IMG/VR virus record: IMGVR_UViG_2541047712_000002
Source: a virus
Lineage: Duplodnaviria > Heunggongvirae > Uroviricota > Caudoviricetes
Strand: one strand, 5' to 3'
DNA: 64,000 nt
Positions 3,001 to 6,000 of this stretch are shown here, piece by piece (the first letter of the stretch is position 1; each line of letters starts with the position of its first letter). The position numbers were made by a program.

Positions 3001-6000
3001 CTACCGGACAACCAACCTAACTTTCACAGGCAATCCGAAAACATTCATACGCGCGATACCCACGACACGCCATTACCCAAACAGCGAAGAAACACCTGAA
3101 CCGCTGAAACCCCAACGAAGCCTGTAACCGCAAGGTTTCTCTCAATCCCAAAAGACACGAAACATAACAATCACGGGAAACGCCATTACCCAATACACGA
3201 ATAACTACAAAAGCCTTTCACACTCCAGACAAACAACTCAAACACAATAACGAAAGCAATCGCCCACCTGCCATTACTCCATAGACGGAGAAGAACAATC
3301 ACCAAAACGACGAGAACACCCCATAGAAGAACCACCGCAAAACGAACGAAACCACATACACCGACAGAGAAAACAACACACCCAATTCACCAACAGAATT
3401 AGTCGCTGTATAGAACGTTCTGGAAGGAGTGAGCATTAACGCCTATAGAGAGGTTGAGACAGATAAAACACGAAGAAAACACAACATGTATAGCGAAGAA
3501 GCCAGGTATGTATAAGTGGGGAGGGAAGGAGGGGTGTCGCCTCCTTTTTCGTATTTATTCAACTCCTGATTTTATCCCCCGTAACACCCCTACGGTCAGC
3601 CTTCGGTCCATACAGGGAAAAGGCTGCATCCCGCTACAGAAACGGCTGGGTTGCCTTCGGGGAACGGCTGGAGGTTTTCAGGGAAACGGTCGAGTTGCCT
3701 GTGTGGATTTCGGGAGAAGGCTCGATGCCGGTTCAGGAACGGTGGCGTACCGGTATAGCGAGAGGGAGAGTTGCGGCTACCCACCTGTAATGTGCGGGAA
3801 GAAGAGAGGCGCTCACGTGCAGGCGGACTTGCTTACCGCTGGATTCCCTCTGAATGCCCAGCTACAGCGTAATTGTGCCAGACAGCCAACGGGTCACAAT
3901 CGATTTCAGTAGGTTTTCGGGGAGAGGATTATTCTGCCCACCAGCCACTTTCGGCCACTAAATCAGAATAATGTAAAAAGTGTACTCGGTACTGAACCTG
4001 AAAACTCACTGCCAAAACCACATTCACCGGAATAAAATCCTTTTTCGCCTGTGCGTTATTGCGATAATAACGCCAACAAGAAAACATGTTGTTTAAGGAT
4101 TGCTTTATGTTTGCAAATATCGACATCAACCAAATCAAGAAATTGACTCAAAAAGAGTTTGACCAGTTCTATGAGCTGGAAGGTTGGTCTTCCACTCTGA
4201 TCAATTCGCGGTGGGTGCTTGAGCTGATGACTCGTGATGACGCACCTGCTTTGATGATTTGCGACATGGGTGAAGATGCTGACTTTATGGATATGAGCGA
4301 ATTTTGTGTGGACACATACAACCGCAGCCAGAAGTACTACTTCACATGCGATAGCGAGAATGATGTTATTTCTAAGGTCTATCTTCACCTTGTCCAGCAT
4401 TGGGACGTTCAGGAGTTTCTTGAAGTATTCGAGTAAACCTAACCAAAGCCAGCAATGCTGGCTTAATTTCTCTATAGCCGCAGGGAAGAACCTGCATATC
4501 GCTCATGCACCTGATCATTATGCTTTGTAGCCGTTTTCTTATTGGTATTATTTACGCCATTGAGAAAACAAGTTGTTTACGGAGTTGTGATGAAAAAATC
4601 ATTGGTTCTTGGTCTGGACAAAGACCAGAAGAGAAAAGAGAAGCCTGCGCTGGTTGCTCAATTAACTTTGCTGGACATCGTTGCCAATGGAACCTCTATT
4701 CGTCTGTTCCGTGAAACAGCGGTGTCTTTCGATAAAAACACCTTTACTCGTTATGTAATGAATGTTCGTCGCCAGCGTGGAAAAGGCTGGATGGCATTTC
4801 AAAGAATGTGGCCGGAACATCAGCTCGAACTGGCCTTGATGGAAGTTAACCGCGTGGCCCAGCAAGAAATTCAGAGAGCATCAGTGATGGCAATAGCCTG
4901 ATAATGTGCAAGTGGTAATTAGTCGACAGTACGACAGCCCCGCCATCCTTACGGGGCTTTTTTGTATTGTAAGTACATACTTACGATCATAGAATATAAA
5001 AATAACCAAAACACTACGGAGAGTGAAATGACCGTTAAACGCGAAAAACTGACAGTTGATGTTTACTATGCCTCTGAAACCGCCGAAGGTAAGAATGTGG
5101 CAAAAATCACCGTTGTTACGTACAACACCGAAACTGGTGCCGAAGTCCAGGCCAGTACGATCGTGCGTAAAGGTGATGCCTCCGGCGGCGAGTACGCGAC
5201 TCAATACCAGTCCATTCTCGATGCAACTGACCCGCTGCTGCTGAAAATCGAGAACTACTTCCGCCAGGTTGATGAAGAGGTGTTTGAAACCATGATGAAT
5301 ATGGTTAACACCGTATTCGCCTCCAGCCTGAACACCAGCACCACCTGGATTGGCCAGTACGGTCTGCGCATTACCTCTGGCATTCCTGCCGACACCTTAA
5401 TCCCTGAAAGCGTATTCGCTTAATCCTCTTTAAATGGCGCGCAAACCGCGCCATTTTATTATGCCCGATAACAATTTGTTTTCTACCTTATCTGATTTGT
5501 GAAAATGATTTCACTGAAGCAACTTAATAAGGAAACCATCATGGGACTTGATATCTATATCGAGACACAGCCTAAAAACGATCTGAATAACGAGGCATCC
5601 AGAAAGCAGGTTGCTTACTTCCGTAAGTTCAATGCGCTCGTTGGGTGGATGGAGCGCAACGTAGGTGAAGTCGAAAATTGTGAGCTTTTAGAATTAACGA
5701 TGAATGACATTTGTTTTCTGAAGGCTCATTTGATGCACATAAACGAAAGTAATTGCGAAGAGTACTTGCCTACCCGGGAAGGTTTTTTCTTCGGCAGTCA
5801 GGAGTACGATGAAGGTTACTGGCATGATGTGGGGGAGTTGAAAGAGCTTGTGGAAGACCTGATCAGGAACCACGACTTTCACAATAACAGACTGACGTTC
5901 TGCGCCTGGTGGTAAATATGGGCGATTTCAAGAAACGTCTGAAGGAGAGAGCCGAGATGGTCAGAAAGCAAAACGCCTCTTCTGTCATCAGATACGCAAG

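What the first reader, a model, noticed from the sequence alone, without database searches (positions are those of the whole stretch)
4107..5915. Strongly acidic small early proteins, candidates for DNA-mimic anti-restriction factors
The 110-aa product of 4107-4436 (about 22 D/E versus 8 K/R) and the 124-aa product of 5541-5915 (E/D-rich) are each expressed from their own promoter/operator and terminator at the leading edge of the element. That is where anti-restriction and other early host-takeover proteins usually sit, and a strongly negative charge is typical of DNA mimics.
Basis: inference. Interest (0 to 1): 0.45.

Follow-up and report, generated by a model that had tools for sequence, protein, structure and literature searches.

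The report
Two acidic phage-plasmid proteins, unknown function
Two small, strongly acidic proteins of an E. coli phage-plasmid are real and conserved; one belongs to a widespread unnamed family that repeatedly sits beside known anti-restriction genes in other mobile elements, which makes it a reasonable but unproven counter-defence candidate, while the claim that they lie at the element's edge is wrong.

Summary
Both ORFs are real. A (4107-4436, 109 aa, 22 D/E against 8 K/R, pI 4.2) is the most acidic of 89 ORFs in the window. D (5541-5915, 124 aa, pI 4.7) is also clearly acidic.

The window is the interior of a circular SSU5/Cyrano-type phage-plasmid of about 110 kb. The metG gene at the left belongs to it, so there is no "leading edge".

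Each gene has a promoter carrying a conserved near-palindrome, AAACAAnTTGTTT (12 sites against 0.6 expected). The same signal also precedes the terminase, ParA-like and DnaB-like genes, so it does not mark early genes.

A and D are unrelated. Neither matches Ocr, ArdA, ArdB or ArdC.

Published RNA-seq shows D silent and A low in the plasmid state.

A counter-defence or establishment role is plausible, more so for D. DNA mimicry is unproven.

The parts
4060..4068 (+). Extended -10-like element TGCGATAAT of the promoter of gene A
   Evidence: Read directly from the sequence. The same GATAAT element sits at the same distance from the palindrome at other sites.
4082..4094 (+). Operator-like near-palindrome AAACATGTTGTTT (the downstream, '+1' type site), directly followed by the AAGGA ribosome-binding site at 4095-4099
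   Evidence: Motif AAACAANTTGTTT: 12 sites in the window against 0.6 expected. It is conserved in diverged phage-plasmids.
4107..4436 (+). Gene A: 109-aa acidic protein (pI 4.2, net -14), phrog_7645. A near-orphan of SSU5-type phage-plasmids. Equivalent to CYRAN_105 of phage Cyrano.
4446..4464 (+). Hairpin after gene A (terminator-like, weak U-tract)
   Evidence: -12.4 kcal/mol, z -4.0.
4566..4578 (+). Operator-like palindrome of the promoter of neighbouring gene B
4590..4901 (+). Gene B: 103-aa protein, phrog_5125, rich in K/R by inspection of the sequence. It co-occurs with A in diverged phage-plasmids.
4936..4958 (+). Intrinsic terminator after gene B (GC-rich stem followed by TTTTT)
5028..5423 (+). 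Gene C: 131-aa protein, phrog_2473. Syntenic with A and B in diverged phage-plasmids.
5432..5456 (+). Terminator hairpin after gene C
   Evidence: -14.9 kcal/mol, z -4.05.
5469..5481 (+). Operator-like palindrome TAACAATTTGTTT (the upstream, '-35' type site) of the promoter of gene D
5498..5506 (+). Weak extended -10-like element TGTGAAAAT of the D promoter. No downstream palindrome follows it.
5541..5915 (+). Gene D: 124-aa acidic protein (pI 4.7, net -12), phrog_7971. Member of a widespread unnamed family with the motifs MGLD, YFRKxN, LPTxxGFFFGSxxYDxxY and a C-terminal WW. Equivalent to CYRAN_108 of phage Cyrano.
5918..6061 (+). 47-aa ORF starting 2 nt after D's stop codon (CYRAN_109), K/R-rich by inspection. 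It is transcribed about 6-fold above local background in the LF82 lysogen although D is not.
6065..6092 (+). Hairpin closing the D plus 47-aa ORF unit (no U-tract)

Best explanation
A and D are two unrelated small soluble acidic proteins. They are encoded in the variable small-gene array of a circular SSU5/Cyrano-type phage-plasmid. Each is transcribed from a sigma-70-type promoter that carries the element's own 13-bp palindromic operator.

I think both most likely work as stoichiometric protein-binding inhibitors that help the element establish itself in a cell. This is inference.

The case is better for D. It belongs to a large family carried by ICEs, conjugative plasmids, phage-plasmids and large phages, and it repeatedly sits in the relaxase-proximal anti-restriction islet next to ArdA, ArdB or ArdC. 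It is silent in the resident plasmid state, as expected for a gene needed on entry or during lytic growth. Its invariant pocket-like motif (Asp4, Arg28-Lys29, Asn31, Thr78, the GFFFG loop, Tyr89, Tyr93) suggests recognition of one specific partner or ligand, not generic DNA mimicry.

A is specific to the SSU5 lineage and always travels with genes B and C. It keeps net charge -14 to -15 and its acidic positions at 25-36% identity, and its order of secondary-structure elements is broadly that of AcrIIA13. The most likely reading is that it occupies the nucleic-acid-binding surface of a DNA-binding protein. That partner could be a host defence or repair protein, or a regulator of the element itself.

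Shown: the genes, their acidity, conservation, contexts, promoter signals and expression levels. Inferred: any inhibitor or counter-defence function.
For: Real, conserved genes: both match PHROG families over their full length. A is present in 229 PLSDB plasmids and D in 344.

Acidity: A ranks 1st of 89 ORFs. The net charge is conserved in remote homologs. Acidic positions stay acidic: 0.70 against 0.07 at other positions for A, and 0.57 against 0.10 for D.

D context: ArdA lies two genes downstream in a chromosomal E. coli ICE. An ArdB/KlcA gene lies 12 nt downstream in another ICE. A full-length ArdC gene follows immediately in Erwinia, Xenorhabdus and Providencia, and ArdB follows in Salmonella diarizonae. 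Among 300 nearest-neighbour ORFs from about 59 loci, 9 are Ard proteins, and ArdcN is the top family.

Expression in the LF82/Cyrano lysogen (PMC9928086, S1 Table): D is at the floor in LB overnight (5.7 against a background of 9.8), and A is at 12.8. A rises to about 200 FPKM in macrophages while the capsid and terminase genes stay near the floor.

No PADLOC hit. No transmembrane or signal features are visible in the sequences.
Against: There is no functional data for either family.

D also sits among DNA-metabolism genes (dUTPase, ligase, NrdD, helicase) in large phages, which fits a role in DNA or nucleotide metabolism equally well. The D family is not uniformly acidic: a few members have pI 5.3-6.3.

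A is syntenically fixed and restricted to one lineage. That looks more like a housekeeping or regulatory gene of the element than an arms-race gene. A is also transcribed in the resident plasmid state under stress.

Many small phage proteins are acidic. The DUF5983 protein at 1302-1601 is just as acidic.
Confidence: 0.4

Rival explanations
1. A and/or D are classical DNA-mimic anti-restriction proteins, working like Ocr or ArdA. They present a B-DNA-like array of carboxylates and block type I (or other) restriction enzymes as soon as the DNA enters the cell.
Confidence: 0.15
2. D is not a mimic. It is a small ligand-binding or catalytic protein built around the conserved pocket (Asp4, Arg28, Lys29, Asn31, Thr78, GFFFG, Tyr89, Tyr93, C-terminal Trp-Trp). 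It might sequester a nucleotide-derived immune signal, or act on nucleotides or DNA ends. This would explain both its place in anti-defence islets and its place among dUTPase, ligase and NrdD genes in large phages.
For: Near-invariant non-acidic motifs persist across relatives down to about 28% identity, from Proteobacteria to Bacillota and archaeal MAGs. The N-terminus MGLD is invariant. Neighbours in large phages are DNA- or nucleotide-metabolism genes. The fold recurs in jumbo phages at TM 0.6-0.8.
Against: No similarity to any known sponge or enzyme family. The conserved loop has the lowest model confidence (pLDDT 79). The pocket is inferred from sequence only, because no coordinates were available for inspection.
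Confidence: 0.2
3. A is an internal regulator of the phage-plasmid. One possibility is an anti-repressor that mimics the AAACAAnTTGTTT operator, or a partner of the neighbouring K/R-rich protein B. It would control the switch between plasmid maintenance and lytic growth rather than attack host defences.
For: A occurs only in SSU5-type phage-plasmids and always in the same slot, together with B and C. It is transcribed in the lysogen and rises about 4-fold in macrophage-internalised bacteria, together with the LexA-like S24 peptidase and other Cyrano regulators, while late genes remain off. An acidic protein next to a K/R-rich protein is a typical regulator-and-antagonist pairing (inference).
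Against: A and B are separate transcription units whose order varies between elements. No DNA-binding domain was detected in B. There is no direct evidence of any interaction.
Confidence: 0.2
4. Neither protein has a defence-related or regulatory role. They are ordinary acidic phage accessory proteins, and the negative charge is incidental.
For: Acidic pI is common among the phage proteins in this window, for example 1302-1601, 40740-41021 and 16550-17182. Every database label is 'hypothetical'. According to a 2025 survey, DefenseFinder v1.3.0 detects almost no anti-defence systems in SSU5-group elements.
Against: Acidic positions are conserved at low sequence identity. D is adjacent to three different anti-restriction families in different genera, which is hard to explain by chance.
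Confidence: 0.15

Closest known systems
AcrIIA13 / AcrIIA13b (Staphylococcus anti-CRISPR, PAM-duplex DNA mimic; PDB 7ENI)
   Different: Identity is 4%, with no sequence-level signal. A has extra short N-terminal elements and two connector helices. PH-like domains score nearly as well. From my own knowledge, the hosts here (Escherichia, Shigella) have no type II-A Cas9, so the target cannot be the same. In A the acidic residues concentrate in the 53-69 connector and not on the sheet.
DMP12 (Neisseria DNA-mimic protein that binds HU; PDB 3W1O)
Ocr (T7 gp0.3) and ArdA: classical DNA-mimic anti-restriction proteins
   Same: Small acidic proteins of mobile elements. ArdA genes lie two genes away from D homologs in E. 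coli ICEs.
   Different: No sequence or fold similarity. From my own knowledge, the charge density is lower and there is no elongated dimeric DNA-like shape. Oligomeric state could not be predicted here.
ArdB/KlcA and ArdC anti-restriction families of conjugative-element leading regions
   Same: Same genomic niche for the D family. D is immediately upstream of ArdB/KlcA or ArdC, near relaxase genes.
   Different: Unrelated in sequence. D is much smaller than ArdC and has no metallopeptidase domain.
YfbM / DUF1877 (E. coli, PDB 1RYL) and the N-terminal domain of DapD
   Different: hhalign of the D-family profile against YfbM gives probability 0.3%. Those domains have no known function that would inform D.
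Phage morons and the dispersed C1-operator regulon of phage-plasmid P1
   Same: Short transcription units, each with its own promoter and most with their own hairpin. One operator sequence is scattered over the genome in front of unrelated operons. From my own knowledge, P1 C1 operators are dispersed in the same way.
   Different: The LF82 study that defined Cyrano morons did not score A or D as morons, because both were below 5-fold over background. The operator sequence and its presumed binding protein are unrelated to P1 C1, and binding is untested.

Membership tests
Ocr (PF08684) / ArdA (PF07275) DNA-mimic anti-restriction proteins | Sequence match to the family profile | tested here: not met
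   Pfam hmmscan at E<=1 returns no family at all for A or D. None of the 46 D-family members matches them.
Ocr (PF08684) / ArdA (PF07275) DNA-mimic anti-restriction proteins | Fold similar to the solved Ocr or ArdA structures | tested here: not met
Ocr (PF08684) / ArdA (PF07275) DNA-mimic anti-restriction proteins | Surface carboxylates spaced like B-DNA phosphates, and inhibition of type I R-M enzymes | not testable with these tools
Only the net charge and the conservation of acidic positions could be measured.
ArdB/KlcA (PF03230) and ArdC (PF08401 + PF18818) | Sequence match to the family profile | tested here: not met
   No hit for A or D. These families are neighbours of D homologs, not homologs of D.
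DNA-mimic proteins in the functional sense (DMP12, AcrIIA13, Ugi and others) | Small protein with strong net negative charge that is conserved across homologs | tested here: met
   A: net -14 to -15 in all full-length homologs down to 25% identity. D: family median pI 4.56, with a few exceptions. Acidic positions are conserved.
DNA-mimic proteins in the functional sense (DMP12, AcrIIA13, Ugi and others) | Structural resemblance to a proven mimic | tested here: inconclusive
DNA-mimic proteins in the functional sense (DMP12, AcrIIA13, Ugi and others) | Competes with DNA for the binding site of a DNA-binding protein | not testable with these tools
   Needs biochemistry or complex prediction.
DUF1877 / YfbM | Profile-level sequence homology | tested here: not met
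   hhalign of the D profile against E. coli YfbM: probability 0.3%, 3 aligned columns. No Pfam DUF1877 hit.
Anti-defence gene of a conjugative-element leading region | Located next to the relaxase/oriT side of the element together with known anti-restriction genes | tested here: met
   Met for D's relatives in ICEs. Not met for the window's own copies, which lie in a phage-plasmid that is mostly typed non-mobilizable. No relaxase is annotated in the ~15 kb around the region in Cyrano or PhiR41_1.
Phage moron (gene expressed from the prophage) | Own promoter and terminator, and transcription clearly above prophage background in the lysogen | tested here: inconclusive
   The architecture is met for A and partly for D. 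In published RNA-seq, A is 1.3x and D 0.6x the local background in LB overnight, both below the authors' 5x cut-off. A rises in other conditions.
Known anti-phage defence systems (PADLOC) | Match to a defence-system protein model | tested here: not met
   No PADLOC hit for any of nine proteins of the array.

The most novel reading that the evidence does not exclude
The D family (MGLD...YFRKxN...LPTxxGFFFGSxxYDxxY...WW) is a new and very widespread counter-defence family of mobile elements. It is found from Enterobacteria to Bacillota, Bacteroidota and archaeal MAGs, and in ICEs, plasmids, phage-plasmids and jumbo phages. It would act through its conserved pocket rather than by DNA mimicry, for example by sequestering a small-molecule immune signal or by blocking one conserved host nuclease or repair protein. 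It would complement the Ard proteins it sits beside.
Probability: 0.2. Interest if true: 0.7.

Novelty: new member of a known kind. Interest (0 to 1): 0.42.

Why it matters
SSU5-type phage-plasmids are common in clinical E. coli, Shigella, Salmonella and Klebsiella. According to a 2025 survey (bioRxiv 10.1101/2025.09.12.675607), current anti-defence detectors find almost nothing in them, so how they get past host restriction is an open question.

Protein D gives a concrete, cheap-to-test candidate. It is a 124-aa protein whose relatives sit next to ArdA, ArdB or ArdC in several genera and also occur in jumbo phages. If it is a counter-defence factor, it would define a new family with a very broad host range and a conserved pocket that can be probed by mutation.

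Protein A would matter more locally, as a lineage-specific inhibitor or regulator of this phage-plasmid group.

The conserved two-site operator found along the way offers a handle on how these elements are regulated, which is essentially undescribed.

Tried and rejected
1. Host-flank or integrated-island reading. Rejected: metG and everything to its right is plasmid-borne.

2. Pfam, NCBIfam and PADLOC searches for A, D and their neighbours. No significant family was found. Only sub-threshold noise appeared: Cas_APE2256 for C at E 0.045, and T7 gp5.9 for the 61-aa ORF at E 0.006 over 17 residues.

3. PDB sequence searches. For A as a single sequence, the only hit was multicystatin (E 1e-4, no stretch passing on its own), and it disappeared with the family profile. 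It was treated as a compositional artefact. For D's profile, only prefoldin and leucine-rich-repeat noise appeared.

4. Homology of D to YfbM/DUF1877. This was suggested by the fold match and the similar N-terminus (MGMIGYF against MGLDIYF). hhalign rejected it.

5. PF23564, listed as a precomputed hit for one D homolog (P0070), was not reproduced at E<=0.01.

6. Toxin-antitoxin or immunity-pair reading of the acidic A with the K/R-rich B, or of D with the 47-aa ORF. There is no family support. A and B are separate transcription units in variable order. The 47-aa ORF was found by tblastn only in the two close relatives (L001, L002) and in none of the more distant D-homolog loci then held. Kept only as part of the regulator rival.

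BFVD was used instead.

8. Contexts of two remote A homologs (P0093, P0094) lay on contigs too short to be informative.

9. The first attempt at search for related loci with the 46-sequence alignment failed for lack of a sufficiently conserved block. It worked with 9 sequences.

10. Literature searches for DUF1877, DUF5983 and DUF4942 gave nothing useful.

11. Rfam and tRNA scans found nothing in the region.
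Full report
**What the window is**

The first 1,140 bases encode the C-terminal part of a methionyl-tRNA synthetase. It is not.

- Bases 1-4000 are 98-99.5% identical over their full length to E. coli plasmids of about 110 kb. The chromosomal metG matches only at 90-95%.
- Bases 3900-6300 match 241 E. coli genomes, always on plasmids and never on a chromosome.
- The same DNA is found in Escherichia phages Cyrano (the virion form of pLF82), CMS-2020a and PhiR41_1. Their annotations list metG as a phage gene, followed by a run of small hypothetical genes.

The window is therefore the interior of a circular SSU5-type phage-plasmid, and there is no "leading edge" here. The Cyrano record is linearised at terS. 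The genes of interest lie 10-12 kb upstream of terS, which is at 16550 in the window. Whether this stretch enters the cell first on injection is unknown.

**Check of the observation**

Gene A (4107-4436) encodes 109 aa with 22 D/E and 8 K/R (pI 4.21). Gene D (5541-5915) encodes 124 aa with 23 D/E and 11 K/R (pI 4.69). Both have good ribosome-binding sites. Homolog alignments support both start codons.

By net charge per residue, A is the most acidic of 89 non-overlapping ORFs in the window, and D is about fifth.

Both families keep the charge:
- A's relatives at 25-36% identity have net charge -14 to -15.
- The D family has a median pI of 4.56, although a few members reach pI 5.3-6.3.
- Positions that are acidic in the window's proteins are acidic in 70% (A) and 57% (D) of relatives. 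At other positions the figures are 7% and 10%.

The acidity is real and selected.

**Transcription signals**

A 13-bp near-palindrome, AAACAAnTTGTTT, occurs 12 times in the window against 0.6 expected. All copies lie on the coding strand side of + strand genes.

In its full form the promoter has one copy at about -35, a GATAAT -10, and a second copy 51 bp downstream of the first. The second copy lies at about +1 and just before the ribosome-binding site.
- A has the extended -10 TGCGATAAT (4060-4068) and only the downstream copy (4082-4094).
- D has only the upstream copy (5469-5481) and a weak TGTGAAAAT (5498-5506).

The motif and layout are conserved in phage-plasmids whose proteins are only 25-40% identical. 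They are absent from ICE and large-phage loci that carry D homologs. The signal therefore belongs to the phage-plasmid and not to the genes.

It also precedes the terminase operon, a ParA-like gene and the DnaB-like helicase. It cannot be read as a mark of early genes.

Hairpins follow A (4446-4464), B (4936-4958), C (5432-5456) and the 47-aa ORF (6065-6092). D has none of its own and forms a unit with the 47-aa ORF that starts 2 nt after its stop codon.

**Expression**

The LF82 study (PMC9928086, S1 Table) gives RNA-seq values for every Cyrano gene.

In LB overnight cultures the Cyrano background is 9.8 normalised counts. A (CYRAN_105) is at 12.8 and D (CYRAN_108) is at 5.7, which is the floor. 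Neither was scored as a moron. The 47-aa ORF (CYRAN_109) was scored, at 6-fold over background.

A reaches log2(FPKM+5) of 5.6-5.8 in culture medium and 7.5-7.8 in macrophage-internalised bacteria at 1 h. At that time terS and the capsid gene are still at about 4. D stays between 3.0 and 5.5 in all conditions.

D thus behaves like a repressed lytic or entry gene. A is transcribed in the resident state under stress. No infection time course exists, so "early" remains untested.

**Protein A**

A has no Pfam, NCBIfam or PADLOC family. It falls in phrog_7645, of unknown function.

A word-indexed search of 5.8 billion proteins found 10 close relatives. An exhaustive HMMER scan of 1.84 billion representatives added three remote ones, and a profile search added three more.

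All relatives on long contigs lie in the same slot of SSU5-type phage-plasmids: a small-gene array in which A is flanked by homologs of genes B (4590-4901) and C (5028-5423). DUF4942 flanks the array on one side. A FljA-like repressor and a UvsW-like helicase flank the other side in the three contigs that reach that far (L095-L097).

In PLSDB, A occurs in 229 plasmids, almost all from Escherichia or Shigella, with one 33%-identical copy in Enterobacter.

AcrIIA13b is a PAM-duplex mimic that works through an acidic surface. Its element order (beta1-beta3, alpha1, beta4, alpha2, alpha3) is broadly the one predicted for A.

The match is suggestive but too weak to establish homology. There is no sequence-level support.

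**Protein D**

D also has no curated family. It falls in phrog_7971.

It has 79 relatives down to 28% identity. They share:
- an invariant N-terminus MGLD;
- a YFRKxN motif;
- a loop LPTxxGFFFGSxxYDxxY;
- a C-terminal aromatic pair.

Foldseek against viral models finds the fold in uncharacterised proteins of jumbo phages such as Phabio, 201phi2-1 and several Erwinia and Klebsiella phages, at TM 0.6-0.8.

**Where D's relatives live**

In PLSDB, D occurs in 344 plasmids. They include Klebsiella and Cronobacter phage-plasmids, which lack A, and Enterococcus, Lactococcus and Macrococcus plasmids.

A scan of one genome per species found 68 loci across Proteobacteria, Bacillota, Bacteroidota, Actinomycetota and a few archaeal MAGs.

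Contexts in conjugative elements:
- In E. coli chromosomal ICEs, D's relative lies two genes upstream of ArdA.
- In a related ICE it lies 12 nt upstream of an ArdB/KlcA gene and a polyvalent-protein metallopeptidase.
- In Erwinia oleae, Xenorhabdus koppenhoeferi and Providencia stuartii the next gene is a full-length ArdC.
- In Salmonella diarizonae the next gene is ArdB.
- In Buttiauxella and a Rhizomicrobium MAG the next gene is a relaxase.

I also took the three nearest ORFs on each side of each homolog, giving 300 ORFs from about 59 loci. ArdC-N was the most frequent Pfam family (6), with ArdB (2) and ArdA (1). The rest included dUTPase/dCTP deaminase, DNA ligase, DUF932, relaxases and Toprim/DUF3991 primases.

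In two large phage-like contigs (138-165 kb), D's relatives lie among NrdD, dUTPase, ligase, helicase and sigma-factor genes.

So the D family is a mobile cassette of the establishment or anti-restriction islets of conjugative elements and of the DNA-metabolism blocks of phages.

In the window, D appears to have been inserted behind a pre-existing operator-bearing promoter. In the diverged phage-plasmids the same terminator-plus-operator junction after gene C is followed by a different small gene.

**Interpretation**

The two proteins are unrelated and should be judged separately.

For D, guilt by association with three different anti-restriction families in several genera is fairly strong evidence for a role in establishment or counter-defence. 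Silence in the resident plasmid state fits that role. But the most conserved residues are Arg28-Lys29, Asn31, Thr78, a Gly-Phe-Phe-Phe-Gly loop and two tyrosines. That pattern points to a specific pocket for a partner or ligand rather than a generic DNA-like surface. Sitting next to bona fide Ard genes also argues for a complementary activity rather than the same one.

For A, the conserved charge and the AcrIIA13-like topology fit a nucleic-acid mimic. However, its strict lineage restriction, fixed synteny with B and C, and stress-responsive transcription in the lysogen fit an internal regulator equally well, for example an anti-repressor.

Neither protein is a member of the Ocr, ArdA, ArdB or ArdC families.

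My estimates:
- 0.4 that these are protein-binding inhibitors serving establishment or counter-defence; within that estimate the case is stronger for D than for A.
- About 0.15 for the specific DNA-mimic anti-restriction reading.
- About 0.2 each for the pocket/ligand reading of D and the regulator reading of A.
- About 0.15 for no such role.

**Novelty and verdict**

Both genes are already annotated as hypothetical proteins in hundreds of records and belong to PHROG families of unknown function, so the ORFs are not new.

Three things are new here:
- D's family is a recurrent neighbour of ArdA, ArdB and ArdC, with a sharply conserved motif and a very wide host range.
- A is a charge-conserved orphan of SSU5-type phage-plasmids.
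- Both are driven by a conserved two-site operator.

If the counter-defence reading holds, they would be new members of a known kind.

Noticed in passing
window 1225-1237, 1276-1288, 2889-2901, 4082-4094, 4566-4578, 5469-5481, 6233-6245, 16472-16484, 16497-16509, 44732-44744, 46275-46287, 47959-47971: The 13-bp near-palindrome AAACAAnTTGTTT occurs 12 times against 0.6 expected. It often comes as two copies 51 bp apart that bracket a GATAAT -10, one at about -35 and one at about +1 just before the RBS. It precedes accessory genes as well as the terminase operon, a ParA-like gene and the DnaB-like helicase. It is conserved in phage-plasmids with only 25-40% protein identity. It looks like the operator of a genome-wide regulon, but the binding protein is unknown.
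   Followed up: partly
window 8859-9380 (- strand): This gene encodes a 173-aa protein matching PF03614 (Flag1_repress, FljA-like) at E 1.4e-68 and phrog_1444 'transcriptional repressor'. It is conserved next to the UvsW-like helicase in the diverged phage-plasmid contigs L095-L097. From my own knowledge, Salmonella FljA acts on the fliC mRNA 5'UTR. The palindrome lies in the predicted 5'UTRs, so this protein is a candidate regulator at the DNA or RNA level. Untested.
   Followed up: partly
window 1302-1601 (+): A 99-aa protein with a DUF5983 C-terminal domain (E 8e-13) is as acidic as protein A (pI 4.26 and net -12 for the 102-aa ORF from 1293). It has the full two-copy operator promoter.
   Followed up: partly
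window 1638-1823 (+): A 61-aa acidic protein (pI 4.9, phrog_11467) has a sub-threshold Pfam match to the T7 gp5.9 RecBCD inhibitor (PF25708). The E-value is 0.006, the score is 16.9 bits against a cut-off of 24.5, and only 17 residues align. It is a lead at most.
   Followed up: no
window 5918-6061 (+): The 47-aa ORF immediately after D (CYRAN_109) is about 10-fold more abundant in lysogen RNA-seq than D itself (57.9 against 5.7 normalised counts). This would not be expected from simple co-transcription. Possible explanations are an internal promoter, a stable 3' fragment, or an antisense or non-coding transcript.
   Followed up: no
window 31-1140 (+), continuing upstream of the window: The phage-plasmid carries its own full-length methionyl-tRNA synthetase gene, about 90-95% identical at DNA level to the chromosomal metG. 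It is poorly transcribed in the LF82 lysogen (CYRAN_100, 16 counts).
   Followed up: partly
window 2550-4000: A stretch of about 1.4 kb has no convincing ORF and unusual composition (GC skew -0.12, AT skew +0.18 over 2001-4000). It contains one copy of the palindrome at 2889. Related records annotate two small hypothetical genes here. There is no Rfam match.
   Followed up: no
between window 6061 and 6266, compared with L001 8285-8635: Many related plasmids and phage Cyrano carry an extra gene of about 350 bp (CYRAN_110) between the 47-aa ORF and gene F. It is absent from this window. The region matches them as two pieces with an insertion of about 470 bp, so the array gains and loses cassettes.
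   Followed up: partly
window 54898-55512 (+): A cluster of three tRNA genes (Asn-GTT, Tyr-GTA, Ser-TGA) is carried by the phage-plasmid.
   Followed up: no
window 43666-44184 (-) and 43286-43663 (-): A GNAT acetyltransferase sits next to a small upstream gene. Cyrano annotates the equivalents as a KacT-type toxin and its antitoxin. These are among the most strongly expressed and macrophage-induced Cyrano genes in the published data.
   Followed up: no
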